A stretch of DNA of 64,000 bases from Eubacteriales bacterium (lineage in GTDB: Bacteria; Bacillota; Desulfotomaculia; Desulfotomaculales; Nap2-2B). Below, in pieces: positions 2,610-50,570 of the stretch (position 1 is its first letter; each line of letters begins with the position of its first letter). A program made the translations under genes and the position numbers. The notes beneath the pieces were generated by a model that ran no database searches, was not told the DNA's origin, and saw only the letters and a list, made by a program, of their open reading frames with translations. Location: the NCBI GenBank assembly GCA_041653135.1, contig JBAZGB010000003.1, forward strand, positions 421 to 64,420. The letters run 5' to 3'.

Positions 2610-3917
2610 TCAAGGAACCGAAATTGCTTCCAGCAAACGTGCGATCATGGCCGCTATCTCTGCGCGGGTTACTTCTTTTTGCGGCCCGTAGGCGCCATCC
2701 GGGTAACCCTTTACAATACCTTTTTCGGCTACGATATTTACCGCCTCGCTTGCCCAAGCCGGGATTTGTTTCTGGTCGGCAAAACTTGCCTGGGGAGGTT
2801 TCTGGTCGCCAAGTTTTTGAACCAGCACCCGGCTTATAATCGCCGCCAGTTCAGCTCTGGTAAGCTGCTTTGCCGGTTGAAAAGTACTTTCCCCACCTGT
2901 TCCGATATACCCTTTCAGCAAACCTTCGTAAACAACCGCCGCGACAGAACCTTTAGCCCACTCCGGAACATCCGCCGCATCACTGAATATGGCCAGCTTC
3001 GCGTTGTTTCTGGCATCTATGCACGGGCTGCATCCTTCCATGCCGGGATCAACGGTTTCCAGTTCCAGCGCCCGGGCAATGATGGCGGAAAATTCTGCCC
3101 GGTTGATCATCTTATTCGGGCGGAAGGTTTTATCCTCATAGCCGCTGATTATCCCCTGCCCTACCAGTTTTTCAATAACCCCTGCAGCCCAGTGGCCCTG
3201 CAAATCGGTAAACTCAACAGCCTGTGCGATGGGGGCGGAAGAATCCTGGTATTTAAAAACAGCTTCCTCACTGTACAGGTTGTTTTGACATGCAACAGCT
3301 TTTACGGTGGTAGTTGTTTTAATCGTGAATTTTTCCTTGTATTCCTGTCGTGTGCCGCTCTGTTTCGGATCTGACCCGTCGGTGGTGTAATAAATAATTG
3401 CCCCCCCGGTAGGAGAAGACAAACTTATCTCCAGACTTCCGGTAAAACTCCCGGGCTCCGGCGCAGCCTCGGGCTTTTTGGGCGCCTGCTGTATGCCGCC
3501 GGTTCCACCGCCCGTCCCGCCGCCGCTAGTCGCTTGCGCCGGCACGTCGGCAGAAAGATTTACACTAAGATAGACACCCTGTTCATATTTGACTTCCGCA
3601 GGGTCAGACTGCGCAGGATATTCCGTTCCTCCAGCGGCTACTTTAAAAATAACCGTCTGGCCGAACACGCTCTGTTCACCTTCGAAACATGCGCTGAAGA
3701 CGCCTTTTTCTATGGTATCCTGAGCATACAACTTTCCTCCGATATAAACATTTACCACGCCTGTTTGGACCAATTCGCCGGTATTGTTCTTTACCGTTCC
3801 TTCGTAACAGCTCGGCACTACCGGCAAATCGGCGGCCAGAACCAACCCGCCCAGGCTCAAAGCGAAAACAAAGGTCAATAAAACTGCATATAAACGCTTC
3901 ATTTTAAATTGTCTCAC
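2610..3917 (-). CDS. SLH-domain surface protein with Fn3-like/CHB_HEX_C-type domain
   Basis: Signal peptide; G/T linker; IYYTTDGSDP motif; three SLH repeats (FTDLQGHWA, GYEDKTFRPNKMINRAEF, GYPDGAYGPQKEVTRAE). Confidence 0.88.
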   Translation of the reverse strand: MRQFKMKRLYAVLLTFVFALSLGGLVLAADLPVVPSCYEGTVKNNTGELVQTGVVNVYIGGKLYAQDTIEKGVFSACFEGEQSVFGQTVIFKVAAGGTEYPAQSDPAEVKYEQGVYLSVNLSADVPAQATSGGGTGGGTGGIQQAPKKPEAAPEPGSFTGSLEISLSSPTGGAIIYYTTDGSDPKQSGTRQEYKEKFTIKTTTTVKAVACQNNLYSEEAVFKYQDSSAPIAQAVEFTDLQGHWAAGVIEKLVGQGIISGYEDKTFRPNKMINRAEFSAIIARALELETVDPGMEGCSPCIDARNNAKLAIFSDAADVPEWAKGSVAAVVYEGLLKGYIGTGGESTFQPAKQLTRAELAAIISRVLVQKLGDQKPPQASFADQKQIPAWASEAVNIVAEKGIVKGYPDGAYGPQKEVTRAEIAAMIARLLEAISVP

Positions 3918-3973
3918 CCAGTCTGCCCTCCTTGAAATATTTAGGTAGAGTTTAAAAATGCTAAAATTATACT

Positions 3974-4996
3974 TTAAGACTCCGTCAGCGCTTTCCAGAA
4001 CCTTTCCAGTGTCACTGCCGCCTCAGCCCGCGTAACTTCTTTGAGCGGCTGGAAGGTACCGTCCGGGTAGCCTTTCAGGATACCCTTCTGGACAATTAAA
4101 TTTACCGCCTCCCCAGCCCAATCCGGGATCTGCTTCTGATCGCTGAAGCTTGCCGGAGCAACCGCCGGTGGTTGCTGGGCGCCGACCACCTGATTAAGCG
4201 CCCGGACTAAAATTGCCGCCAGCTCCGCTCTATTCAATGGCTTGTGCGGCCGGAAATAAACTTTTCCGTTCTCTTCCGGATAGCCCTTTAATATACCCGC
4301 GTATACAGACGCGGCGACAGAGCTTTGCGCCCAGGCGGGTATGTCTGCTGCGTCACTGATATTTTCCAGCACTTCCGGTTCTCCGGCGCCTAAAACCAGA
4401 ATACGCGCCATCATGGCAGAAAACTCTACGCGGGTAAGGAGGTTTTCCGGCCGGAAAGAATGATTCTCGTAACCCTTGAATAATCCCTGATCAATCGCCT
4501 GCTGGGCAGTGTCTTTTGCCCAATGCCCCTTTAAATCATCAAAGGCTGCCGGCAATGTGTCCTCAGTTACAACCGTCAGGTCTACCTGCTGCTTTGACTT
4601 GCTCTCCCAAATTACTTTAGCAAGACTCGTACGCGCAAGATACTCCCGCCCGTTAACCAAAACCTCGAATTTTACTTCTTTGCCGCTCAGGTCATCTTTA
4701 CTGTAAACAAGCAGCCGGCTTGTATAGGGGTCCCATGCCGGCACTCCATAGCACCCGTTGAAAAAAGGCAGTTTGCCGCAAAGTTTCCCATCAACAAAGG
4801 CTTTCACCTCGCCGGAAGCAACAGCTTGTCCCGCTTCGGTTTTAACCGTTCCGTAGTACAGGGCGGGAAAAGCCACCGGGGGCTGCGTGGAGGAATCCTG
4901 CTGGGCATATGCATTACCCTGTAAAAATAACAATGTTCCTAAAAAGAAAATGAACATCCAAAACTTTTGACCCAGGTTCTTATATTTTTTCTGCAT
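3974..4996 (-). CDS. SLH-domain surface protein
   Basis: Likely start ATG at 4996 (MQKKYK); signal peptide; three SLH repeats (FDDLKGHWA, GYENHSFRPENLLTRVEF, GYPDGTFQPLKEVTRAE). Confidence 0.88.
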   Translation of the reverse strand: MQKKYKNLGQKFWMFIFFLGTLLFLQGNAYAQQDSSTQPPVAFPALYYGTVKTEAGQAVASGEVKAFVDGKLCGKLPFFNGCYGVPAWDPYTSRLLVYSKDDLSGKEVKFEVLVNGREYLARTSLAKVIWESKSKQQVDLTVVTEDTLPAAFDDLKGHWAKDTAQQAIDQGLFKGYENHSFRPENLLTRVEFSAMMARILVLGAGEPEVLENISDAADIPAWAQSSVAASVYAGILKGYPEENGKVYFRPHKPLNRAELAAILVRALNQVVGAQQPPAVAPASFSDQKQIPDWAGEAVNLIVQKGILKGYPDGTFQPLKEVTRAEAAVTLERFWKALTES

Positions 4997-5066
4997 CAAT
5001 CTTTCGCCTTTAAATATTGCTTTCAAAAAATATATTTCCCTTCAGCTTCTTTATTCAAGAAAATAA

Positions 5067-5105
5067 AGCTTATCTGGTGCGGCGGGTCCGCCGCACCAGA
5101 CAGCT
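5067..5105 (-). terminator. Intrinsic terminator after the 955-aa gene
   Basis: Perfect inverted repeat tctggtgcggcgg/ccgccgcaccaga followed by TTTATTTT on the minus strand. Confidence 0.8.
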
Positions 5106-5177
5106 GTCTATCAATTATCATCCTGCATTATCTGCAAGATAACAAATCAGACGTGCAAATAATACTACTGTGGTGTT

Positions 5178-8045
5178 TTATGGGTTTTGAGTCTCTTCTT
5201 CGTACAGCAAGTCATCAAACATTGACTGGCCAACTTCGGCAGCCAGCGTCTGAGTCTTGGTCATGTATACCCAGTAGCCGTCGCCGTTGAACACCAGGTA
5301 CAGCGGGTCGAGCGCCCAGGCTTCAAGCGTACCCTGGGAAACATCGGCCGCCGTAAACCCGGCCAGGTTGGCCATCCTGTTGGGATCGCCGTCGATATTT
5401 ACGTCCTTTATTCCTGTGTTCGGATCGAGATCAACGACGATATCCAGTCCGTGGCCGCCCGGGTTATAGGTCTTCTTGCAGGCTTCGCAGGTGGTTCCGA
5501 GCATCTTGCCCAAGAACTCAGGCTGGTAAAGCTTGTCGCAAGGATAGCCTTCACAATTCGGACTGTCGCAATCCGGTACTTTGCAATTGCCGATAATATC
5601 AATCTCTATCGCCGGCGGCAAGGTCATCTCGCTCGGCATGGCTACTCCGACCAGGTTCCAGCCCTGCACCACAGTTCTGGTGGGCGGGATATCTTCACCG
5701 GGGTTGGCAACCCGGTTGAAGACGTATTTTGCCACATAGCAGTTCGGAGCTCCTTGTGTTGCTCTTTGCTTCGTCTTTACGTAGTAGGCGTAAAGCGGAT
5801 CAAGTTCCTCATCGGGGGCAAGGCTATCCCACTGATAGTCTTTATAGGTTAGAATATCGGCAAAGCTGCTCGCCGGCATCAGGGAATCCATGCCGCCGCT
5901 GCCCACCAGTTCCTGCGGAGTGGAAAGGACCTGCCAGGTCTCCGCATTCAGCACACGCTTTAAATCTACAGGATCGGCAAAGGGGCCAACTGCAACTGTG
6001 TTGGTTAGAATGACTTTTCCGGTTGTCTTGCCGACCAGCTTCGCCTGCACATAGACTACACTGCAAACACAGCTTGCGGAAGGATAGACATAGAAGTGTG
6101 ACTTCACGGTGCAGTATGGGTGAGTGTACTTATCCCAGCCATGGCACACTTTGCAAAGCAGCTCGCTGTGGTCTTCATTATAAATGTCGCCGCGGCCATC
6201 ATAGGCGCCTTTAAAGTTGAAGGTAGTATCAAGCGCCGTATCCCAGGTTGCGCAGCTGGGCGGGCAGAATTCCTTGGGGCTGGTCCCGGCCCAATTTGTA
6301 TCGTCTCCATCATCCGATCCACGCAGAGAAACAATAACGTCATAATTCTCAGTGGCATGGATATCGTTTCCTGCATCATCCTTTAGCCAGATTGCCGCAG
6401 ACAGCGGCCAACCGGCAACGGGGGCATTCTCGACAGAACCGAGTTCAATATCCTTGACCACTTTTACGGTAATATCCAACTGGGCCTGCGTTGCCTCATT
6501 GACAAATGCCTTGCATCTGGCAACAGACCTGTTAAGGTTGATTATGGAACGGCCTTCGATTGTCATTTCACCCAGTTTTTTCGGGTAGAATGTTACGCAA
6601 ATCCCCGTTTGGCCTTGCGGAATCCAAATGTGGGTGATTTCGTTGCCAGCAGCGTCTTTAAAGATACCGGTAACATTTTTGTTCGTATCGTAAGCGATAA
6701 GGTCAACCTTTAAACCGCCTGCATCCCTTACCGTTGTCAGGTTGCCGAACTTATCATAGACATCGATGCAGAAGTTGTAAGGTTTGTCAAGGGGAATCGG
6801 GCTCTCTTTCGGACAAGACCTCGGTCCGATGCAACTGGGCACACCAGGAGAAAGCGTGATGGTCCGGGGAATCGCTTCCAGCCAGGCGTGGGGCATTGTT
6901 TCAATGCACCCTGGAACGACAAAAGGACTATATAAAATGTGTGTCCCGCCAGAACTGGTTGCCCCGGCAAAGTCCTCTAAGGCCTCGGCAGCCATAAGCT
7001 GGCAATCCACAGTAAAGGGCGCAATATACTCAATCTCAGGATCTGCATTGCAGTCCTGTACTTCGATTGTACGCGCCCGGATGGTATAATCCAGGCCGTA
7101 ATCCTCACAGGCCGGCAGCTTTAGCTGGGCTGTGAAGATGGTTCTGTCTCCCAACTGCCTCGTATGCGCGACCACGGGGCAGATCGGCACGCCTGTGCAC
7201 GGTTTATAGTTCGCGGAACAATTTTCAATTATAGTTTCCCCATCTTCTATTACGAATGATCCTGGTCCACCGGCGTAAGGATCCTGCGCCGTCAGGCCTT
7301 TTTTATCCACGAGGTCAATAAGTACCGGCCAGGTGTCAAACGGCCAGGGTTTGTTGCAGGTACCCCAAACCTCTCCGCTGACCTCGATTGTAGAGCCTTT
7401 AGTGTAAGGAGCAGCGGGTAAATCAAGCGTTATTCTCTCTACAGTGCGCACTACTCTCAGCGCCATGCAGGATGAGACGCCACCGGTAAAGCACGGATGG
7501 CGCAGCGTGATGCAATAGCTTCCATCCAGGCAGGTGTTCTTCACCCTTAAGCCCTCGATTTGGAAATAATTGACTGTACCTATTTGCGGCAGGTTTTGTT
7601 TTTGAATAACAAAGGTAGCCGTGTGACTTACATTATCAATCACCGGAATTGTCTGAAGAATAGTACCAGTCATAGGATCTGAGCCACTGGTCCAGACCCG
7701 TATAGCAACAGTTCTCCCAATAGCCGGAGAAAGATCAAACTGTGTAGCATTCGGGTCGGAGATTTCCGGGAAATCAACCACTATCGGCTGATCTGCAAAT
7801 ACTCCCAGGTCAATATCGCCAAATAAGCCGGAATAGATCCCGTAATCATATGTGTGACTGCCCTTGACGACGTTCATATTCATGCCTGTATACGGGTTTA
7901 GTTGAGGATTCCCGTCAGGACCCAAAGCAATAATCCCTGTGTAATCAACCGGCGCCGCCAGTGATACTCCGGCAAACATAAAGCAACACAGAGCAACTAC
8001 AGCTAAAACAATGCTAAGTTTGCCCCATTTAGATATATGTGACAT
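5178..8045 (-). CDS. Large secreted Cys-rich surface (S-layer-like) protein with one CxxCH motif
   Basis: AAGGAGGG RBS; signal peptide; ~31 Cys in the mature chain by manual count; CKVCH at 6141-6155; two C-terminal W/GWNL...YYV/YWV repeats; own terminator and long leader. Function is an inference. Confidence 0.65.
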   Translation of the reverse strand: MSHISKWGKLSIVLAVVALCCFMFAGVSLAAPVDYTGIIALGPDGNPQLNPYTGMNMNVVKGSHTYDYGIYSGLFGDIDLGVFADQPIVVDFPEISDPNATQFDLSPAIGRTVAIRVWTSGSDPMTGTILQTIPVIDNVSHTATFVIQKQNLPQIGTVNYFQIEGLRVKNTCLDGSYCITLRHPCFTGGVSSCMALRVVRTVERITLDLPAAPYTKGSTIEVSGEVWGTCNKPWPFDTWPVLIDLVDKKGLTAQDPYAGGPGSFVIEDGETIIENCSANYKPCTGVPICPVVAHTRQLGDRTIFTAQLKLPACEDYGLDYTIRARTIEVQDCNADPEIEYIAPFTVDCQLMAAEALEDFAGATSSGGTHILYSPFVVPGCIETMPHAWLEAIPRTITLSPGVPSCIGPRSCPKESPIPLDKPYNFCIDVYDKFGNLTTVRDAGGLKVDLIAYDTNKNVTGIFKDAAGNEITHIWIPQGQTGICVTFYPKKLGEMTIEGRSIINLNRSVARCKAFVNEATQAQLDITVKVVKDIELGSVENAPVAGWPLSAAIWLKDDAGNDIHATENYDVIVSLRGSDDGDDTNWAGTSPKEFCPPSCATWDTALDTTFNFKGAYDGRGDIYNEDHSELLCKVCHGWDKYTHPYCTVKSHFYVYPSASCVCSVVYVQAKLVGKTTGKVILTNTVAVGPFADPVDLKRVLNAETWQVLSTPQELVGSGGMDSLMPASSFADILTYKDYQWDSLAPDEELDPLYAYYVKTKQRATQGAPNCYVAKYVFNRVANPGEDIPPTRTVVQGWNLVGVAMPSEMTLPPAIEIDIIGNCKVPDCDSPNCEGYPCDKLYQPEFLGKMLGTTCEACKKTYNPGGHGLDIVVDLDPNTGIKDVNIDGDPNRMANLAGFTAADVSQGTLEAWALDPLYLVFNGDGYWVYMTKTQTLAAEVGQSMFDDLLYEEETQNP

Positions 8046-8155: not shown

Positions 8156-8449
8156 TTCCTAAAAGGGATCCTTCCCGGCATTCCCCCTTTCTAAAAGATG
8201 ACAAGCTCTTCTCTCTTACTGAAACCTGCATTGCCAAACAATTCCTCGCGTTAAAAGCTTCCTCGAGGAAAATTATATCTGCCCGCTTAAGATCAGCCAC
8301 CCGTCTTCACTGGCTATTATATTGCATTAATAACGATAAATTACTGCCTGAAAATATATATAAGCAGACTATAACCCCAGAGCTAAGATTTTTCCTGCCC
8401 TGGAAGATTAATGGCCGGTCTTCCTTTTTTTTCTTCTAATAACTGCATA

Positions 8450-8477
8450 GTTCTACAAGATGACTTTGAAATCCTTC
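8450..8477 (-). promoter_or_regulatory. SigH-like promoter
   Basis: GAAGGATTT-N11-TGTAGAAC matches the sigmaH consensus RNAGGAWWW...GAAT with one mismatch. Confidence 0.45.
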
Positions 8478-8506
8478 TGTCCTGAAATAATTTTTACAGT
8501 GCTATT

Positions 8507-8538
8507 ATCAACAGATCCTCTACACGGAGGAAATTAAT
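8507..8538 (-). promoter_or_regulatory. Candidate bacterial SECIS element
   Basis: After the UGA at 8543-8545: lower stem AUUAAU/GUUGAU, upper stem UCCUC/GAGGA starting after an 11-nt spacer, apical loop CGUGUA. No U-tract follows. Confidence 0.5.
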
Positions 8539-8542
8539 GACT

Positions 8543-9256
8543 TCACCCGCCGCAATGAGTAGTTTTTCCGGCGCTGTCTTCCATCGGCGCCTTAATGGCC
8601 CTGTCCGCCAGCTTTGTACCGCGCCAGCCGACATCAAACCCACCTGTCATGTTTTTGACAGGCAGTCCCTGCGCTCCCAAAACACCGGCGACCAGGCCGG
8701 AGGAACTGCCGTCAGCGCAATAAACAACAATTTCATTCAGGCCTCCCCGGGCCGCGTGTTCGGCCAACAAACGCTTCAGCTCGGCAATGTTTTGTTTTTC
8801 AGCCATGTTTTCCGCCGGGGCAATCCAGACGGCGCCCGGAACATGGGCGGGATCGTAAACAGCTTTATTCCTTACGTCAACAACCAGGGGGTCGTTACCA
8901 ATCTGATCGCCGGTATTATGGCCGGTCCTGTAATCGGCCAGGGAATTGTCGTTGTCGTCATCAAGAATCTTTTTGAGTCCGGCAGGACTGATCAGGTTGT
9001 CCGCCTTGCCCAGATAAAGCTCGCCCCGCTGGTCATCAATAGTTACCGTCCCGTTTTTTTCGTCCCAGGCCACATGTGCGCCAAGCTGCTCGCTGACAAA
9101 ACGGATCGGAACATATATTCGGCCGCTTTTTAGGATGACTGAAACCCCTTCTCCGGCCTCAACTCCGCTAATTAACAGCCTGATTGCCTGCCCTGCCTGT
9201 GCCCATCCACAACCAAGCAAAAATATACAAATCAGCAGAACCGCTATCTTTTTCAA
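8543..9256 (-). CDS. Secreted copper-amine-oxidase-N-terminal (stalk) domain plus rhodanese protein; candidate C-terminal CxxU selenoprotein (would extend to 8534)
   Basis: YVPIRFVSEQLGAHVAWD stalk motif; LVVDVR...HVPGA and VVYCADGSSS rhodanese motifs; ends H-C-G-G-TGA-S-H-TAA. Confidence 0.8.
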   Translation of the reverse strand: MKKIAVLLICIFLLGCGWAQAGQAIRLLISGVEAGEGVSVILKSGRIYVPIRFVSEQLGAHVAWDEKNGTVTIDDQRGELYLGKADNLISPAGLKKILDDDNDNSLADYRTGHNTGDQIGNDPLVVDVRNKAVYDPAHVPGAVWIAPAENMAEKQNIAELKRLLAEHAARGGLNEIVVYCADGSSSGLVAGVLGAQGLPVKNMTGGFDVGWRGTKLADRAIKAPMEDSAGKTTHCGG

Positions 9257-9460: not shown

Positions 9461-9922
9461 TTATATGGTGTCGCCGCTCACATTTTGATTTTTTTTGATG
9501 GATGGTCTTTGCGCTATTGAATCTATACACAAAAAAACCAGGGTAAGGAAGAAAAAGCCGGAAGAAGTCAGGCAAAAGACACAGAAACTTTTTAATATCT
9601 GCGACTGATAAATAATCAGGGCGGAGCAAATGAATACGCTCCAGAGGGCTAAAAGAAAGGCCAGGACCCGGCACCACTTGCTTTGCCGGGCAAAGAAGCA
9701 GAAAACAACCAGCAAGGCGGCGGCGCCCGCGCCGGCAACGGCAAAAGAAACCCTTCTTGCGATAAACAAAACCGGTTCACTGCAGCTTCTTGTGTAACAG
9801 AACAACTGTGACAAAGGCGTGAGAAAACCGTTGAAATACAGATATATTAAAAGAACGGCGTTTATAAAAGAAAGCAGCGCAGCCCACCTGGTCAAGGAAA
9901 GCAAAAACCTTTTTTCTGTAAT
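9461..9922 (-). CDS. Vitamin K epoxide reductase (VKOR) family membrane protein
   Basis: Four hydrophobic segments; loop pair C-YTRS-C (9782-9799); YQ..I...F-CVFC in the last TM (9572-9583). Start is either TTG 9904 or in-frame ATT 9922, 7 nt after AAGGAGGG. Confidence 0.72.
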   Translation of the reverse strand: MTEKRFLLSLTRWAALLSFINAVLLIYLYFNGFLTPLSQLFCYTRSCSEPVLFIARRVSFAVAGAGAAALLVVFCFFARQSKWCRVLAFLLALWSVFICSALIIYQSQILKSFCVFCLTSSGFFFLTLVFLCIDSIAQRPSIKKNQNVSGDTI

Positions 9923-9961: not shown

Positions 9962-10453
9962 TTACTTTTTCAGAGAAACGCAGACCGGACAATAACCATT
10001 ATCGACTATGACTGTCGACCTTGGCTTATCCCAAACCACTTTGCCGCCCAAAGACTCCGCAGTCGCTTTCAGGGGCACGTAAAGCCTCCCCCTGACGATT
10101 TTTGCGCGAACAGCCAAATTAATCCGCTTACCGTTTTTAAATGCTGTTGCGCTGCCGGGGGTGAATTGAACGCTGTCTTGCTTTCTTGTTACAGTTGCGG
10201 TTCTGGCAGCGGTGTTCCATTTTACTGCAGCCCCCAGATTTTCTGCGATCGCTCTGCAGGAAACCAAAGTATGTCCATTCTCGACCAACATATCGGCGCT
10301 GTTAATACTTTCCCCATTAACCAGCACACGAATCTGGCCGGCTATCCCGGGAGTCAGAAAGAAAATGCCTTGGAAAGAAACCAGGACTACCGTCAATACC
10401 AGGAATACCTTTAATTGATCTAAAAACTTTTGCCTGTTGAAAGCGTCACTCAT
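9962..10453 (-). CDS. Secreted copper-amine-oxidase-N-terminal (stalk) domain protein with C-terminal CPVC
   Basis: Signal/anchor helix; two stalk repeats (AIAENLGAAVKWN, YVPLKATAESLGGKVVWD); YCPVC at 9980-9991. Confidence 0.8.
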   Translation of the reverse strand: MSDAFNRQKFLDQLKVFLVLTVVLVSFQGIFFLTPGIAGQIRVLVNGESINSADMLVENGHTLVSCRAIAENLGAAVKWNTAARTATVTRKQDSVQFTPGSATAFKNGKRINLAVRAKIVRGRLYVPLKATAESLGGKVVWDKPRSTVIVDNGYCPVCVSLKK

Positions 10454-47170: not shown

Positions 47171-49099
47171 TTATAAACCGTTGGCTGTTGTTTTTGGCTT
47201 GATCAAAAAACGCTTATCACCCACTCTTTTGGTCACCTTGATCCTGTCAAAGTATTCCAGCAAGGGCAGCGCGTATTTCCTGGAAATATTAAAAAGAGTT
47301 TTAATTTCTCCGATCGAAATTTCATTATTTTTTTCCAAATACCCGGTCAAGAGTTTTTTTGCATCTTCAATGGCAGCAGCGTGAAAATAAAGTCCTTCCG
47401 CCACTTTGACCAGCGTCCCCTGCCGCAAAAAAAGCTGCAGGACTTCCTGAGACTGTAATTCGCCAATACCTTCCCCAGCGGAAACGCTTTCCCAATCCGG
47501 CGGTTGAAAGCCGTTTTTATAAAAGATATCTTCTACTTTCTTGATAATCTCCTGCTGGCCGTCTTCAAGTTTAGGCTGAAAACCTTTTAATGCTATTGTG
47601 TTCGAACCCGGACTTAAAATATTTTCTGCTCCCATTATCTTAAGCAGCGACTGAAGCTGTCTTGTGTTAAATTGGGGAAAAAGCCTGGAACGCAGTTCCT
47701 CACGGGGGAAACCTTCCCTTAAAGGATACTGGTGATGGTATTTCTTCAGAAGTTCGGTTAATTTTTCAACCCATTGCTTGTAAATCTCCCGGGAAATAAA
47801 AAAATGGTCATGATCCGCTGTCAGGACATACACTTTATTTTCCCCGCTCAGTTCTTCAAGCGCCCGGTCAGTTTCTTCCTCTTTAATCCCGGTTGACCGG
47901 GATATATCCGATTTGCTCCTGATTGTTTTCTGGCTTTTTAAATAGCTTTCCACCTGTTCAGCAGGGAGGCCAAGTTCACGAGTAACCAATGCTTCAATTA
48001 TTTCTTCCCGCATTCGTTTATGTTTCCTGGATGCCGAATCGACTACGACACCTCCTCCCAGAGTATGAACAGGAGAATATGACCGGAACACGAAACGGTC
48101 CCCTTTTATAGCCGCAACCGGTTCCTCAAGCAGAAATTGCGCATAAGCGGTTTCTCCGGGTAAAAGTTTATCCCTGTCCAACAGGATAACCCTGCCGAGA
48201 ATTTCAGCCGTACCAAGATAAAAACGAAGACGGGTCCGGTTTTCCAACTCCTTTTGCACATTTGCAAGCAAAGAAATCCGGGCATCCAGACGGTTGGCAG
48301 ACCTTAAAAACCCCGGCTTTGCCAAAACGCTTCCCCTTTGAGCCTGTTCCACACCTACACCGGCAATATTTACAGCCACCCTCTGCCCGGCCATGGCTTC
48401 TTTTACTTTTTCTCCGTGAACCTGCAGGGAACGCACCCTGGCAACCAATCCCTGAGGCATAATCTCCAGGTTGTCTCCGGTATGAATAACTCCGCTCCAG
48501 AGCGTGCCCGTCACCACTGTGCCAAATCCCGTTACGGAAAACGCCCTGTCTATAGGCAGCCGGGCCTGCCCTGCATTATCTTTTCCTTCCACCGGAACTT
48601 CGTCGATTTTTTTCAGCAGCTCTTCCAGTCCCTGACCTGTAACCGCAGACACCTCCACAACAGGGGATTCTTTTAAAGGGGTGTCTTTCAGGAAATCATT
48701 AACATCTTCCCGGACCAATTTTAAAAATTCTTCGTCAACCAGGTCAACTTTCGTCAAAGCAACTATTCCCCGGTTGATCTGCAATAAACGGACAATATCC
48801 ATGTGCTCCCGTGTTTGGGGCATAACTCCCTCATCTGCGGCTATAACCAGTAAAACAAGATCAATTCCGGCTACCCCGGCCAACATGTTTTTAATAAACC
48901 GCTCGTGACCGGGAACATCGACAATGCCTGCCCGGCGTCCGCTGGGAAGCCGGCAAAAAGCGAATCCCAGCTCGATGGAGATCCCTCTTTCCTTCTCCAT
49001 CTTTAACCTGTCAGTGTCAATCCCCGTCAGAGCTTTAATCAGAGCTGTTTTCCCGTGATCTACATGGCCTGCCGTACCAATGATAATATTGGTCATCAC
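47171..49099 (-). CDS. selB: Selenocysteine-specific elongation factor
   Basis: GTAGHVDHGKT, DVPGHERF, TKVD; winged-helix tail ending SRKYALPLLEYFD..KVTKRVGDKR. Confidence 0.97.
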   Translation of the reverse strand: MMTNIIIGTAGHVDHGKTALIKALTGIDTDRLKMEKERGISIELGFAFCRLPSGRRAGIVDVPGHERFIKNMLAGVAGIDLVLLVIAADEGVMPQTREHMDIVRLLQINRGIVALTKVDLVDEEFLKLVREDVNDFLKDTPLKESPVVEVSAVTGQGLEELLKKIDEVPVEGKDNAGQARLPIDRAFSVTGFGTVVTGTLWSGVIHTGDNLEIMPQGLVARVRSLQVHGEKVKEAMAGQRVAVNIAGVGVEQAQRGSVLAKPGFLRSANRLDARISLLANVQKELENRTRLRFYLGTAEILGRVILLDRDKLLPGETAYAQFLLEEPVAAIKGDRFVFRSYSPVHTLGGGVVVDSASRKHKRMREEIIEALVTRELGLPAEQVESYLKSQKTIRSKSDISRSTGIKEEETDRALEELSGENKVYVLTADHDHFFISREIYKQWVEKLTELLKKYHHQYPLREGFPREELRSRLFPQFNTRQLQSLLKIMGAENILSPGSNTIALKGFQPKLEDGQQEIIKKVEDIFYKNGFQPPDWESVSAGEGIGELQSQEVLQLFLRQGTLVKVAEGLYFHAAAIEDAKKLLTGYLEKNNEISIGEIKTLFNISRKYALPLLEYFDRIKVTKRVGDKRFLIKPKTTANGL

Positions 49100-49100
49100 T

Positions 49101-50570
49101 TCACCCCTGGAATAATTCCTTTTTCTCCTCTTTTAACAAAACACCTGACAATGCATCCAGGATCATTTTTTCTTCTCCGTTTTGGATGGTTCTTAAATCT
49201 AAAAGAAAGAGGTCTTCCCGTACCCTGCCCAAAACAGCGGGTTCATGATATCTTAAAAGCTGGCTGAACCGTTCCATGCTCAGTTTAAATGGTTTAACAG
49301 CCACCGCAAAGGAAGGCAGTTCCGCCGTCGGCATAGCCCCGCCTCCTACCCGGGAAACAGAGCTTCTGACAGTTATTTCCGCTTCTCTCTGTACAGCTTC
49401 TCTCAAGCTGCAAGCCATATCTTCCGCCCTCAACCGGATATCTTCCAAATCCCCAGTAATCATCCGCAACGTTGGAATATCTTCTAGGGCCTGCTCCGGA
49501 TTCAGGTATGACCTTAAGGTGGCTTCCAGCGCCGCCAGAGTTAGTTTGTCTATCCTCAACGCACGGGCCAGGGGGTTTTTATGCATTTCCTCAATAATTT
49601 CCTTTTTGCCGGCAACAATCCCCGCCTGTGGACCGCCAAGCATTTTATCCCCGGAAAAGGTCACCACACTGATACCGGCGCCCAGCACCTGTTGGACGGT
49701 AGGCTCAGCCGGAAGATTGAAAAACCCGAGATCCGCCAGAACACCGCTGCCCAGATCGCTCATTACCGGCAGGTTAAACTCCCGTCCCAGCTTGACAAGT
49801 TCAGAAACACTTGCCTGTCTGGTAAAACCTATAATATGGTAATTGCTTGTATGGACATGCAAAATCAACGCCGTTCTCTCGGTAATCGCCGCCCGGTAAT
49901 CTTCAACATAGGTCTTGTTGGTTGTGCCCACCTCAACAAGGGTACAGCCGCTCTGTTTCATAATCTCGGGAATGCGGAAAGAACCGCCTATTTCTACGAG
50001 TTGGCCTCTTGATACAATTACTTCCTTTCCCCGGGCCAATGTGCTCAAAGCCAAAAGGACAGCCGCCGCGTTGTTATTTACGGCCAGAAAGGACTCAGCC
50101 CCGGTTAACCTGAAAAGAATGTCTTGAACGGCGGCGTGCCGTGAACCTCTCCTGCCCGTATCAAGATCAAATTCAAGATTGATGTAACTTGACGCAGCTA
50201 AAAAGACAGCCTGACAGGCGGCCGTGCTTAATAAAGAACGGCCAAGGTTTGTATGCAGGATAACTCCGGTTCCATTGATTACTTTTTTTACATTTGATCC
50301 TGCAATCCTTTTAACCGTTTCCGCAGTTTCCAGCACGACAAGACCTTTTAGCTGTTCCCTGGAAAAACTTCTTCCTGATCCCTCGTTATTTTTTAATTCG
50401 TCGCGAATGCGGTCCAATGCGCTGCGTATTATTTCAAGAACAATTTCACGAGGATAAAAACTTAATAGTTCACTGATTTGGGAAGACTGCAGAATTTCAT
50501 TTACAGCAGGCAACTTGTGCAAGATCTTTTCTCCGCCGTTTACATCCAAATTTGTTTTGCCCCCAATCAT
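49101..50570 (-). CDS. selA: L-seryl-tRNA(Sec) selenium transferase
   Basis: INGTGVILHTNLGR, NNNAAAV, SRGQLVEIGGSFR, FSGDKMLGGPQAG. Confidence 0.97.
   Translation of the reverse strand: MIGGKTNLDVNGGEKILHKLPAVNEILQSSQISELLSFYPREIVLEIIRSALDRIRDELKNNEGSGRSFSREQLKGLVVLETAETVKRIAGSNVKKVINGTGVILHTNLGRSLLSTAACQAVFLAASSYINLEFDLDTGRRGSRHAAVQDILFRLTGAESFLAVNNNAAAVLLALSTLARGKEVIVSRGQLVEIGGSFRIPEIMKQSGCTLVEVGTTNKTYVEDYRAAITERTALILHVHTSNYHIIGFTRQASVSELVKLGREFNLPVMSDLGSGVLADLGFFNLPAEPTVQQVLGAGISVVTFSGDKMLGGPQAGIVAGKKEIIEEMHKNPLARALRIDKLTLAALEATLRSYLNPEQALEDIPTLRMITGDLEDIRLRAEDMACSLREAVQREAEITVRSSVSRVGGGAMPTAELPSFAVAVKPFKLSMERFSQLLRYHEPAVLGRVREDLFLLDLRTIQNGEEKMILDALSGVLLKEEKKELFQG

What the first reader, a model, noticed from the sequence alone, without database searches (positions are those of the whole stretch)
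8507..8560. Candidate hidden selenoprotein: rhodanese ending C-G-G-UGA with a SECIS-like hairpin
Seen: the annotated stop of 8543..9256 is UGA in the context His-Cys-Gly-Gly-UGA-Ser-His-UAA. Read as Sec, this gives a C-terminal CxxU. Downstream RNA: UGA-AGUC[AUUAAU]U[UCCUC]CGUGUA[GAGGA]UCU[GUUGAU]. The upper stem starts after an 11-nt spacer, the apical loop starts after 16 nt and has G at its second position, and no U-tract follows. selA and selB are in the same window. Known: CxxU is the typical selenoprotein redox motif, and these distances fit the E. coli fdhF and general bacterial SECIS model. Inference: an exported rhodanese/CxxU selenoprotein that ordinary annotation would truncate by 3 residues.
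Basis: partly seen in the sequence, partly recalled or inferred. Interest (0 to 1): 0.85.

Follow-up and report, generated by a model that had tools for sequence, protein, structure and literature searches.

The report
Unannotated surface rhodanese selenoprotein family
The "stop" codon of this secreted sulfur-transfer (rhodanese) protein is very probably read as the rare amino acid selenocysteine, revealing an overlooked selenoprotein family in anaerobic spore-forming bacteria that public annotation cuts short by a few residues.

Summary
Gene 8543..9256 (-) encodes a signal peptide, a stalk domain and a rhodanese domain. It ends His-Cys-Gly-Gly-UGA-Ser-His-UAA, and selA and selB are in the window.

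The window's hairpin folds no better than shuffled sequence, so the case rests on comparison. All 25 non-redundant homologous 3' ends (43-85% protein identity) share four features:
- They use TGA, against about 37% background use.
- They have 2-4 further sense codons, mostly Gly, written with all four GGN codons.
- They have a second in-frame stop (TAA, TAG or TGA).
- They have a covarying hairpin 9-15 nt after the UGA that meets the published bacterial SECIS criteria, give or take 1 nt of spacing in one member.

None of about 234 other long ORFs in the same DNA combines these features. Relatives without the tail end in TAA or TAG. The same hairpin type marks an unambiguous internal Sec codon in multihaem cytochromes encoded next to distant rhodanese relatives.

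The family is absent from a 2026 catalogue of 119 selenoprotein families and from NCBIfam, and RefSeq truncates it at the UGA.

Three gaps remain. No Cys-for-Sec homologue was found, selC and selD are not in the window, and nothing has been tested experimentally. Function is inferred: a cell-surface sulfurtransferase with a C-terminal Cys-x-x-Sec redox tail.

The parts
8534..9256 (-). Proposed full coding sequence of the selenoprotein: 240 codons plus the UAA stop. It runs from the TTG start at 9254-9256, has Sec at codon 238, and ends ...H-C-G-G-U-S-H.
   Evidence: ORF and sequence. The extension is supported by the family-wide pattern of TGA, 2-4 codons and a second stop.
8543..8545 (-). In-frame UGA, annotated as a stop and proposed to be Sec238.
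   Evidence: TGA in 25 of 25 non-redundant tail-bearing homologues, against about 37% background TGA use.
8534..8536 (-). Proposed true stop codon, UAA, two codons (Ser-His) after the UGA.
   Evidence: A second in-frame stop 2-4 codons after the TGA is present in all 25 members, as TAA, TAG or TGA.
8552..8554 (-). Cys235 codon (TGC), the Cys of the C-x-x-U motif.
   Evidence: Cys sits at -3 in 51 of 69 family proteins and at -2 in 6.
8516..8531 (-). SECIS-type upper stem-loop, UCCUC-CGUGUA-GAGGA. It has 5 bp and a 6-nt loop with G-U at loop positions 2-3. The stem starts 11 nt after the UGA and the loop 16 nt after it.
   Evidence: Covariation in homologues. Covariance model R1 scores 24.3 bits and this is its only strong hit in the window.
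8507..8541 (-). Whole predicted SECIS region, including a weak lower stem (GUCA 8538-8541 pairing with UGAU 8507-8510). MFE is -8.8 kcal/mol.
   Evidence: The lower stem is not shown to be conserved outside the closest relative.
8717..8719 (-). Rhodanese active-site Cys180 codon, in the loop C-A-D-G-S-S-S (family consensus C-Y-T-G-N-T-S).
   Evidence: Nearly invariant column C180; loop tabulation.
8633..8893 (-). Rhodanese domain, residues 122-208.
   Evidence: PF00581 E=7e-13. AF2 model with pLDDT 84.8, matching rhodanese structures.
9023..9145 (-). Stalk domain (Cu_amine_oxidN1), residues 38-78.
   Evidence: PF07833 E=5e-11.
9185..9256 (-). Signal-peptide-like N-terminus, MKKIAVLLICIFLLGCGWAQAGQA.
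   Evidence: Read directly from the sequence. The family consensus keeps a K-K / hydrophobic / A-x-A pattern. Export is inferred.
5178..8045 (-). Conserved downstream partner: a 955-aa secreted, Cys-rich protein (33 Cys) with no Pfam family.
   Evidence: A homologue lies directly downstream of the rhodanese gene in L001, L002, L003, L005, L018 and L050-L053.
47171..50570 (-). selB (47171..49099) and selA (49101..50570), the Sec-insertion machinery.
   Evidence: Pfam SelA E=7e-157; SelB winged-helix and beta-barrel domains. SelB orthologues are named as such.

Best explanation
UGA 8543-8545 (-) is a selenocysteine codon. While the ribosome holds this UGA in its A site, the hairpin 11 nt downstream (8516-8531) acts as a bacterial SECIS. 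That hairpin lies entirely beyond the real UAA stop. It recruits SelB-GTP-Sec-tRNASec, both selB and selA being encoded in the window, so the protein ends ...His-Cys-Gly-Gly-Sec-Ser-His rather than ...Cys-Gly-Gly.

The product is a secreted, stalk-domain-bearing, single-domain rhodanese belonging to a cell-surface gene cluster. The cluster also holds stalk, SLH and dockerin proteins and a conserved large Cys-rich partner.

Inferred mechanism: the rhodanese Cys180 carries sulfane sulfur as a persulfide. The short C-terminal Cys235-x-x-Sec238 tail works as a mobile selenolate/selenenylsulfide redox arm, functionally like the Gly-Cys-Sec-Gly tail of mammalian thioredoxin reductase. The arm would attack or resolve that persulfide, or a polysulfide or selenium substrate, and pass sulfur or electrons to a partner.

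Shown: the recoding signature, its conservation and covariation, the domain content and the synteny. Inferred: export, the chemistry of the tail and the substrate.
For: 1. Stop codon: all 25 non-redundant tail-bearing homologues (43-85% identity) use TGA. Background TGA use in long ORFs of the same DNA is about 37%.
2. Extension: all 25 have 2-4 more sense codons and then an in-frame TAA, TAG or TGA. The first of these codons is Gly in 17 of 25, written as GGG, GGA, GGT or GGC, which is synonymous variation typical of translated sequence.
3. Hairpin geometry: a hairpin starts 9-15 nt after the UGA (mode 11), with the loop 15-21 nt after it. The loop reads (C)G[U/G]N(G). This matches the published bSECIS consensus of G in the first two loop positions, a 3-9 nt loop, a 4-16 bp stem, 16-37 nt spacing and MFE <= -7.5 (PMC13188914). 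All 25 members have MFE <= -8.1.
4. Covariation, naive MAFFT alignment: 88% of cells paired against 70% in shuffles (0/500). Five of 6 pairs have double-sided changes. The score is 0.61, against at most 0.24 for slid controls.
5. Covariation, model-fitted alignment: 92% against 76% (0/500).
6. Empirical null: 0 of about 234 other long ORFs in the same loci combine TGA, a second stop at 2-4 codons and such a hairpin. In the family, 23 of 25 do.
7. Tail-less relatives end in TAA or TAG, and L025 has an ordinary terminator.
8. The RNA model also finds the same hairpin type at an internal UGA of 11-haem cytochromes. There the frame continues, conserved, for about 375 codons, so this hairpin type does accompany real Sec codons.
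9. selA and selB are in the window, and SelB is widespread in the lineages that carry the family. D. formicoaceticum carries glycine/betaine/sarcosine reductase genes, which normally encode Sec-dependent enzymes (PMC6778437).
10. For the function: this rhodanese clade is repeatedly joined to redox modules at the same end. These are a 4-haem cytochrome fused in place of the tail (P0076), a UGSC-like Sec module (L027/L028) and an adjacent Sec-cytochrome.
Against: - No homologue with Cys in place of the putative Sec was found among about 220 inspected relatives. A Cys form is a classical supporting criterion.
- Only 2 codons follow the UGA in the window, so evidence for coding downstream is thin for this gene on its own.
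- The window's hairpin taken alone is no more stable than shuffled sequence (z = -0.47), and its 6-nt loop differs from the family's commonest form.
- tRNA-Sec (selC) and selD are not in the window and could not be reached.
- One relative, L007, has a TGA but no nearby second stop and no clear hairpin.
- The Cys at -3 is absent in some members, so a Cys-Sec couple cannot be the universal mechanism.
- In P0080 the rhodanese catalytic Cys is replaced by Gly.
- There is no experimental evidence of selenium incorporation or of any activity.
Confidence: 0.85

Rival explanations
1. The UGA is the true stop. The protein ends in a functionally important Cys-Gly-Gly-COOH, and the conserved hairpin is a 3'-UTR element such as an mRNA stabiliser, an RNase barrier or a regulatory structure, unrelated to Sec.
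For: No Cys-for-Sec homologue was found. The window's hairpin alone is not significant. Public pipelines annotate the gene this way.
Against: This reading does not explain several observations:
- TGA is used 25 times out of 25 when background use is about 37%.
- A second in-frame stop of varying identity always follows after 2-4 codons.
- The first downstream codon is Gly with synonymous third-position variation.
- The hairpin sits at SECIS distance with the SECIS loop consensus.
- The same hairpin type occurs at an internal, read-through UGA in cytochromes.
- The hairpin has no U-tract, and L060 carries a separate terminator downstream.
Confidence: 0.07
2. The site has a dual outcome. Sec insertion competes with termination, so cells make both a truncated ...CGG form and a full ...CGGU-xx form. 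The ratio follows selenium supply, which makes the tail a selenium-dependent switch of activity.
For: Only 3 residues are lost on termination, and the rest of the protein is intact, so a truncated product would be stable. The Sec lies very near the C-terminus in every member. That Sec decoding is generally incomplete in bacteria is established knowledge; it was not tested here.
Against: Nothing here measures decoding efficiency. This is a refinement of the main explanation, not an alternative to it.
Confidence: 0.3
3. The CCUCC/GGAGG hairpin is an anti-Shine-Dalgarno/Shine-Dalgarno sequestration element that controls translation of a downstream ORF.
For: In the window and many relatives the stem arms read CCUCC and GGAGG, which look like anti-SD and SD sequences.
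Against: Many members have UCCCC/GGGGA, AGUCCCU/AGGGACU, GCUUUC/GAAGGC or CCUGCUC/GAGCGGG stems. These keep the pairing but not an SD sequence. No conserved start codon or ORF follows. In the window only a 5-codon UUG ORF follows, and the next gene starts about 470 nt away.
Confidence: 0.02
4. The organism reads UGA as a standard amino acid under an alternative genetic code, so no Sec-specific recoding is involved.
For: None specific.
Against: TGA terminates a large share of long ORFs in the window and in the related loci, 109 of 255. Ordinary housekeeping genes are intact under code 11.
Confidence: 0.01

Closest known systems
Rhodanese-like selenoproteins, forms 1-5, as catalogued in PMC13188914 (UxxS; UxxG; NF041203 CxU; UxxG; TsoB NF045694 UxxxxU)
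   Same: They have a rhodanese (PF00581) domain combined with Sec, are presumed to do sulfur or selenium transfer or redox chemistry, and were mostly predicted computationally.
   Different: None of the catalogued forms has the CxxU motif. Here the rhodanese active-site Cys is retained and the Sec lies outside the domain, 3-5 residues from the C-terminus. The protein adds a signal peptide and a stalk domain. NCBIfam models NF041203 and NF045694 do not match: there is no hit at E<=1 for NF041203, and TsoB scores 11 bits against a cutoff of 805.
'UXX-star' selenoprotein families (NF041114, NF041211) and other C-terminal-Sec proteins such as SaoC, HgcB and KCU-star in the same catalogue
   Same: Sec is followed by only two or three residues and then the stop, so the SECIS must lie in the 3' untranslated region. 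Ordinary gene calling truncates them.
   Different: These are unrelated protein families, and there was no HMM match. Here the tail is appended to a rhodanese enzyme domain on a secreted protein.
Mammalian thioredoxin reductase C-terminal Gly-Cys-Sec-Gly tail (established knowledge, not tested here)
   Same: A short, flexible C-terminal tail carries a Cys/Sec redox pair next to a catalytic centre in the body of the enzyme. Loss of the last residues leaves a folded protein.
   Different: The Cys and Sec are adjacent in TrxR, whereas here they are separated by two Gly (or one). The fold, the cofactor (FAD/NADPH in TrxR), the cellular location and the SECIS type all differ. This is an analogy of mechanism only.
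Bacterial SECIS consensus (bSECIS model of Zhang and Gladyshev as summarised in PMC13188914; E. coli fdhF minimal element 11 nt after the UGA, from my own knowledge)
   Same: The loop size, stem length, G[U/G] at the start of the loop, spacing and MFE all fall within the model. The modal stem start of 11 nt equals the fdhF spacing.
   Different: The element lies wholly downstream of the real stop codon instead of inside the coding sequence. The spacing is at the short end of the range, 15-21 nt to the loop.
Sud polysulfide-sulfur transferase of Wolinella (own knowledge) and the Sec-dependent multihaem polysulfide reductase MccSep (PMC13510729)
   Same: These are extracytoplasmic sulfur-handling proteins. 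One is a rhodanese-type sulfur carrier, and the other is a Sec residue acting on polysulfide outside the cytoplasm.
   Different: No sequence relationship was shown beyond the rhodanese fold. No polysulfide reductase genes are in the window. This is a functional analogy that motivates the proposed substrate and is not evidence for it.

Membership tests
Bacterial selenoprotein gene (Sec-UGA plus bSECIS) | The in-frame UGA is conserved at the same position in homologues. | tested here: met
   25 of 25 non-redundant tail-bearing homologues have TGA there. Tail-less relatives use TAA or TAG.
Bacterial selenoprotein gene (Sec-UGA plus bSECIS) | There is evidence of translation downstream of the UGA. 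| tested here: met
   The extension is short (2-4 codons) but consistent. Gly is the first residue in 17 of 25, written with all four GGN codons. The second in-frame stop is always present and varies between TAA, TAG and TGA. The window and L050 differ by a synonymous AGT/AGC change.
Bacterial selenoprotein gene (Sec-UGA plus bSECIS) | bSECIS geometry: 3-9 nt apical loop, 4-16 bp upper stem, G in the first two loop positions, 16-37 nt from the UGA to the loop, MFE <= -7.5 kcal/mol (PMC13188914). | tested here: met
   Window: 6-nt loop CGUGUA, 5-bp stem, 16 nt, -8.8 kcal/mol. Family: loops (C)G[U/G]N(G), 15-21 nt, all 25 with MFE <= -8.1.
Bacterial selenoprotein gene (Sec-UGA plus bSECIS) | The hairpin is supported by covariation. 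| tested here: met
   0 of 500 shuffles reach the observed pairing or covariation score, and the slid controls are much lower.
Bacterial selenoprotein gene (Sec-UGA plus bSECIS) | Homologues exist with Cys aligned to the Sec. | tested here: not met
   None among the 72 word-indexed hits and the relevant hits of a 1.84-billion-protein profile search. This criterion supports a call but does not define it, and some accepted families lack Cys forms.
Bacterial selenoprotein gene (Sec-UGA plus bSECIS) | The genome encodes the Sec machinery (selA, selB, selC, selD). | tested here: inconclusive
   selA and selB are present in the window.
Bacterial selenoprotein gene (Sec-UGA plus bSECIS) | Selenium is physically incorporated at the UGA position. 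| not testable with these tools
   This needs 75Se labelling or MS of the C-terminal peptide.
Rhodanese-like domain (PF00581) | HMM match above the gathering score, and an active-site Cys in the loop after the central beta-strand. | tested here: met
   49.3 bits against a cutoff of 22.2. Cys180 is nearly invariant. The AF2 model matches rhodanese structures.
Rhodanese-like selenoprotein form 3 (NF041203, CxU) | Match to NF041203. | tested here: not met
   No hit even at E<=1 for three family members, including a ...GCG-U form.
TsoB rhodanese/DsbD fusion selenoprotein (NF045694) | Match to NF045694; UxxxxU motif; DsbD fusion. | tested here: not met
   11 bits against a cutoff of 805. There is no DsbD domain and only one Sec.
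[quoted passage not shown] | Match to NF041211. | tested here: not met
   No hit. Only the Sec-X-X-stop layout is shared.

The most novel reading that the evidence does not exclude
This clade of extracytoplasmic rhodaneses is the sulfur- or selenium-binding head of a previously unrecognised cell-surface redox system in Gram-positive anaerobes and Chloroflexi. Its electron- or sulfur-relay module is interchangeable. It can be a 4-6-residue Cys-x-x-Sec tail, a fused UGSC-type Sec domain, a fused multihaem cytochrome, or a neighbouring Sec-containing 11-haem cytochrome. In that reading the tail turns a surface rhodanese into a selenium-dependent extracellular polysulfide/sulfane-sulfur (or selenite) reductase or transferase. 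It would work with the conserved Cys-rich partner in an S-layer/cohesin-dockerin-anchored complex.
Probability: 0.3. Interest if true: 0.78.

Novelty: new variant of a known kind. Interest (0 to 1): 0.62.

Why it matters
Selenoproteins are systematically missed by gene callers, and this family illustrates that well. It has dozens of members in Desulfotomaculum-, Peptococcaceae-, Dehalobacterium-, Pelotomaculum-, Syntrophomonadaceae- and Ammonifex-type genomes. It includes a RefSeq protein from a complete genome, and every member is truncated at the UGA.

It would add a sixth, architecturally distinct rhodanese selenoprotein to the known set. Here Sec sits outside the catalytic domain, in a tail a few residues long, on a secreted surface protein, with the SECIS lying entirely behind the true stop.

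It also gives a compact, well-defined SECIS family for studying SelB recognition in Bacillota. And it points to selenium-dependent sulfur chemistry at the surface of Gram-positive anaerobes, where very little is known. Practically, a simple HMM and covariance model would let annotation pipelines correct these genes.

Tried and rejected
- Single-sequence folding of the window's element was not significant, so I did not use it as evidence.
- Rfam (gathering thresholds) and ARAGORN on the window found no RNA family and no tRNA, including tRNA-Sec.
- NCBIfam scans of read-through proteins against known selenoprotein models found no family match.
- The search for Cys-for-Sec homologues, by word-indexed search and by a full HMM profile search, found none. 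The profile output was dominated by multi-domain rhodanese and stalk repeat proteins.
- PDB sequence and fold searches returned only generic rhodanese matches, with no insight into the tail.
- The attempt to reach the contig beyond the window, to look for selC and selD, failed. One protein was not on record and the other sits on a short unrelated contig.
- I considered that the 955-aa partner might be a cytochrome, because it has one CKVCH motif. I rejected this because the motif is absent in all five homologues.
- I considered that the 147-aa CxxC membrane protein upstream might be a conserved redox partner. I could not support this: it is conserved only in the closest relative, and the Dehalobacterium gene at that position is unrelated.
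- I rejected the anti-SD/SD reading of the hairpin and the alternative genetic code reading (see the rival explanations).
Full report
**1. The observation**

On the minus strand, ORF 8543..9256 (237 codons, TTG start) ends ...ACT CAT TGC GGC GGG TGA AGT CAT TAA, that is T-H-C-G-G-UGA-S-H-UAA. The RNA after the UGA is AGUCAUUAAUU-[UCCUC]-CGUGUA-[GAGGA]-UCUGUUGAU. The 5-bp stem starts 11 nt after the UGA, and the 6-nt loop starts after 16 nt and has G-U at positions 2-3. A weak lower stem can form, and no U-tract follows.

Pfam finds a Rhodanese domain (residues 122-208) and a Cu_amine_oxidN1 'stalk' domain (38-78) behind a signal-peptide-like N-terminus. ORFs 49101..50570 and 47171..49099 are clear SelA and SelB.

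Taken alone, however, the hairpin is not remarkable. The 71-nt region folds no better than dinucleotide shuffles (z = -0.47). Rfam and ARAGORN find nothing in the window.

**2. Comparative evidence for recoding**

A protein search returned 72 relatives, almost all about 250 aa with the same stalk-plus-rhodanese architecture. Their predicted C-termini stop at one point. Of the 69 family proteins, 51 end with Cys at -3 (39 are exactly C-G-G), 6 have Cys at -2, and 5 end in Gly without Cys.

I fetched the DNA for relatives from the genome collection, from metagenomes and from individual contigs. In all 25 non-redundant tail-bearing members (43-85% protein identity to the window) I found the following:
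- The stop is TGA.
- It is followed by 2-4 sense codons.
- A second in-frame stop follows, as TAA, TAG or TGA.
- The first codon after the TGA is Gly in 17 of 25, written as GGG, GGA, GGT or GGC. This is synonymous variation, as expected for translated sequence.
- The window and its closest relative L050 differ there by a synonymous AGT/AGC change.

Relatives without the tail end in TAA or TAG. L025 ends ...PAPAPTK and L029-L031 end ...GMGGM, and L025 has an ordinary terminator.

As an empirical null I scored all 255 ORFs of at least 200 codons in the same DNA. TGA terminates 109 of them, about 37% once the family is removed. The combination of TGA, a second stop at 2-4 codons and a qualifying hairpin occurs in 21, and all 21 are family members. 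None of the other roughly 234 ORFs has it. With the same criteria, 23 of the 25 family sequences pass.

**3. The RNA element**

In every member a hairpin starts 9-15 nt after the UGA (mode 11), with its loop 15-21 nt after it. The loops read (C)G[U/G]N(G). This is the N1-G-[G|U]-N-N2 pattern of the published bacterial SECIS consensus, which also requires a 3-9 nt loop, a 4-16 bp stem, 16-37 nt spacing and MFE <= -7.5 kcal/mol (PMC13188914). All 25 sequences have MFE between -8.1 and -20.0, and 21 of the 25 MFE folds contain the conserved hairpin.

The stems differ while keeping their pairing: CCUCC/GGAGG, UCCCC/GGGGA, AGUCCCU/AGGGACU, GCUUUC/GAAGGC and CCUGCUC/GAGCGGG.
- On a naive MAFFT alignment, 88% of cells pair against 70% in shuffles (0/500). 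Five of 6 pairs show double-sided changes. The covariation score is 0.61 against 0.25 for shuffles and at most 0.24 for slid controls.
- An alignment fitted by the covariance model gives 92% against 76% (0/500).

The covariance model R1 finds only the target at a meaningful score in the 64-kb window, 24.3 bits. The hairpin is not a terminator: it has no U-tract, and L060 carries a separate terminator further downstream. It is not a conserved SD/anti-SD pair either, because many stems lack GGAGG.

**4. Independent support from a different gene**

Scanned over 312 kb of fetched loci, R1 also hit four loci that were not used to build it: L017, L035, L036 and L039. Each hit lies on an in-frame TGA inside a secreted cytochrome c with 11 CxxCH motifs, in the context ...SEGEG-U-GGE(V/L)PP(V/L)E(A/E)WEKV.... 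The frame continues, conserved, for about 375 more codons that contain ten of the haem motifs. That UGA can hardly be anything but Sec. Its hairpin, GCCUCC-GGUG-GGAGGC starting 11 nt downstream, is of the same type as the family's. These cytochrome genes sit directly downstream of a secreted, LPXTG-like-anchored tandem rhodanese.

**5. Sec machinery and organisms**

The window comes from a spore-forming Bacillota, as shown by SpoIIE, SpoIID, SpoVT, TilS, FtsH and Mfd. Its SelB is 91% identical to SelB of Desulfotomaculum sp. MAGs. SelB is common in Desulfotomaculaceae, Peptococcaceae and Pelotomaculum, the lineages that hold this rhodanese family.

D. formicoaceticum has a complete genome that carries the gene. 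It is reported to have glycine/betaine/sarcosine reductase genes, which normally encode selenoenzymes (PMC6778437). selC and selD are not in the window and could not be reached. This support is therefore at lineage level and does not cover each genome.

**6. What the protein is, and its context**

An AlphaFold model built on the family alignment is confident (mean pLDDT 84.8). It shows the stalk domain, a rhodanese fold and a short beta-hairpin in the last 15 residues. Its structural neighbours are generic single-domain rhodaneses and the rhodanese modules of persulfide-handling enzymes. The active-site Cys180 is nearly invariant; the loop is C-Y-T-G-N-T-S in the family and C-A-D-G-S-S-S here.

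The gene lies in a cell-surface cluster on the minus strand, in this order:
- a stalk protein (9962..10453);
- a 147-aa membrane protein with Cys motifs (9461..9904);
- the rhodanese;
- a 955-aa secreted Cys-rich protein (5178..8045);
- two SLH proteins, a 289-aa protein and a dockerin protein.

A homologue of the 955-aa protein follows the rhodanese gene in nine loci from several genera. In Dehalobacterium the cluster continues with dockerin and cohesin/SLH proteins.

**7. How it most likely works**

Shown: the recoding signature and its conservation. Inferred: SelB-Sec-tRNASec is recruited by the hairpin while the UGA is in the A site, giving ...C-G-G-U-S-H. The protein is then exported and held at the surface.

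For the chemistry, the best guide is that this rhodanese clade repeatedly carries a redox module at the same C-terminal position:
- the Cys-x-x-Sec tail;
- a fused 4-haem cytochrome in a tail-less member (P0076);
- a fused UGSC-like Sec module with U-G-V-C (L027/L028);
- a neighbouring Sec-cytochrome.

I therefore propose that Cys180 binds sulfane sulfur as a persulfide. The tail's selenolate, paired with Cys235 where that is present, would then resolve it or relay sulfur or electrons. This is analogous to the Gly-Cys-Sec-Gly arm of thioredoxin reductase, and to Sec acting on polysulfide in MccSep (PMC13510729).

The substrate is unknown; candidates are polysulfide, thiosulfate or selenium species. 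Members without the Cys, and one (P0080) without the rhodanese Cys, show that the Sec itself is the constant element.

**8. Comparison with what is known, and novelty**

A 2026 catalogue of 119 prokaryotic selenoprotein families lists five rhodanese forms: UxxS, UxxG, CxU/NF041203, UxxG and TsoB UxxxxU. None has a C-terminal CxxU tail or a stalk domain, and the terms 'stalk', 'copper amine' and PF07833 do not occur in it.

NCBIfam release 20 has no model that matches, even with U written as C. Literature searches found no description. RefSeq WP_089609410.1 and several GenBank entries are annotated as ordinary 'stalk domain-containing' or 'rhodanese-like' proteins ending at the UGA.

The layout of Sec, two residues and then a stop has precedent in the 'UXX-star' families. 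I therefore rate this as a new variant of a known kind. It is a sixth, architecturally distinct rhodanese selenoprotein family and does not represent a new principle.

**9. Limits**

- No Cys-for-Sec homologue was found.
- The translated extension is very short.
- selC and selD were not seen.
- L007 is an exception, with a TGA but no nearby second stop and no clear hairpin.
- L026 may carry a different tail.
- Nothing has been tested experimentally.

I put the probability that this UGA is decoded as Sec at about 0.85. The specific chemistry proposed for the tail is much less certain.

Noticed in passing
L036:4135-5595 (UGA at 4456-4458); also L035:4485, L039:4492 and L017:5060: Secreted cytochrome c proteins of 431-517 aa with 11 CxxCH motifs carry a conserved internal in-frame UGA, in the context ...SEGEG-U-GGEVPPVEAW.... 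The SECIS hairpin is GCCUCC-GGUG-GGAGGC, 11 nt downstream. The gene lies next to a secreted tandem rhodanese with an LPXTG-like anchor (L036 2794..3945). No NCBIfam selenoprotein model matches; the best hit is ExtM at 34 bits against a cutoff of 800. This may be another unannotated selenoprotein family in Chloroflexi-type genomes.
   Followed up: partly
L028:~2850-5210 (UGA at 3736-3738); L027 is identical: A secreted rhodanese of the same clade is fused to a long C-terminal region with an in-frame UGA, ...VITGNGG-U-GVCTPLE.... The frame stays open for 489 more codons and a hairpin starts 10 nt after the UGA. The region around the UGA weakly matches the UGSC family (seleno)protein model NF041046 (36 bits, below the cutoff of 125). 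Database proteins P0100 and P0070 of this type appear truncated.
   Followed up: partly
P0076 (399 aa, from the profile search): This tail-less stalk-rhodanese homologue carries a C-terminal extension with four CxxCH haem-binding motifs in place of the CGG-U tail. That suggests the C-terminal position hosts interchangeable redox modules.
   Followed up: no
P0080 (241 aa): This family member keeps the ...A-C-G-G end, but the rhodanese catalytic Cys is replaced by Gly (VVYGSDGGSAG). The tail may therefore function without the rhodanese Cys.
   Followed up: no
L026:2215 onwards: A relative of the 'tail-less' type (...PYKNIPST) ends in TGA. An 8-bp hairpin starts 11 nt downstream with a G-first loop, and the 10-codon in-frame extension contains a Cys (SSITSCGTQE). 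This may be a different Sec tail, or chance.
   Followed up: no
L007:4742 onwards: This is the only tail-bearing member (...SCET-TGA) without a nearby second stop or a clear SECIS-type hairpin. The same MAG also has a canonical copy (L008). It may be a degenerate or rearranged paralogue.
   Followed up: partly
window 9461..9904 (-): A 147-aa predicted multi-pass membrane protein with C-x4-C and C-x-x-C motifs lies directly upstream of the rhodanese gene. It has no Pfam or NCBIfam match. It is 91% conserved in the closest relative L050 and absent at that position in Dehalobacterium. It might be a DsbB/VKOR-like thiol oxidoreductase.
   Followed up: partly
window 9962..10453 (-): A 163-aa stalk-domain protein ends in ...G-Y-C-P-V-C-V-S-L-K-K, a C-terminal CxxC motif. 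It is 94% conserved in L050.
   Followed up: no
window 5178..8045 (-): A 955-aa secreted protein with 33 Cys and no recognised domain is conserved directly downstream of the rhodanese gene across several genera (776-955 aa, 18-33 Cys). Its single CKVCH motif is not conserved.
   Followed up: partly
window 8402..8424 (+): A terminator-like hairpin with a T-run is oriented on the plus strand, in the 500-nt gap between two minus-strand genes. No convincing plus-strand gene lies upstream of it.
   Followed up: no
window 8471..8482 (-): The motif GGACAGAAGGAU, about 35 nt downstream of the hairpin, is shared with L050 and L051 (68-85% protein identity). It could be a regulatory element for the downstream gene, or simply recent common ancestry.
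   Followed up: no
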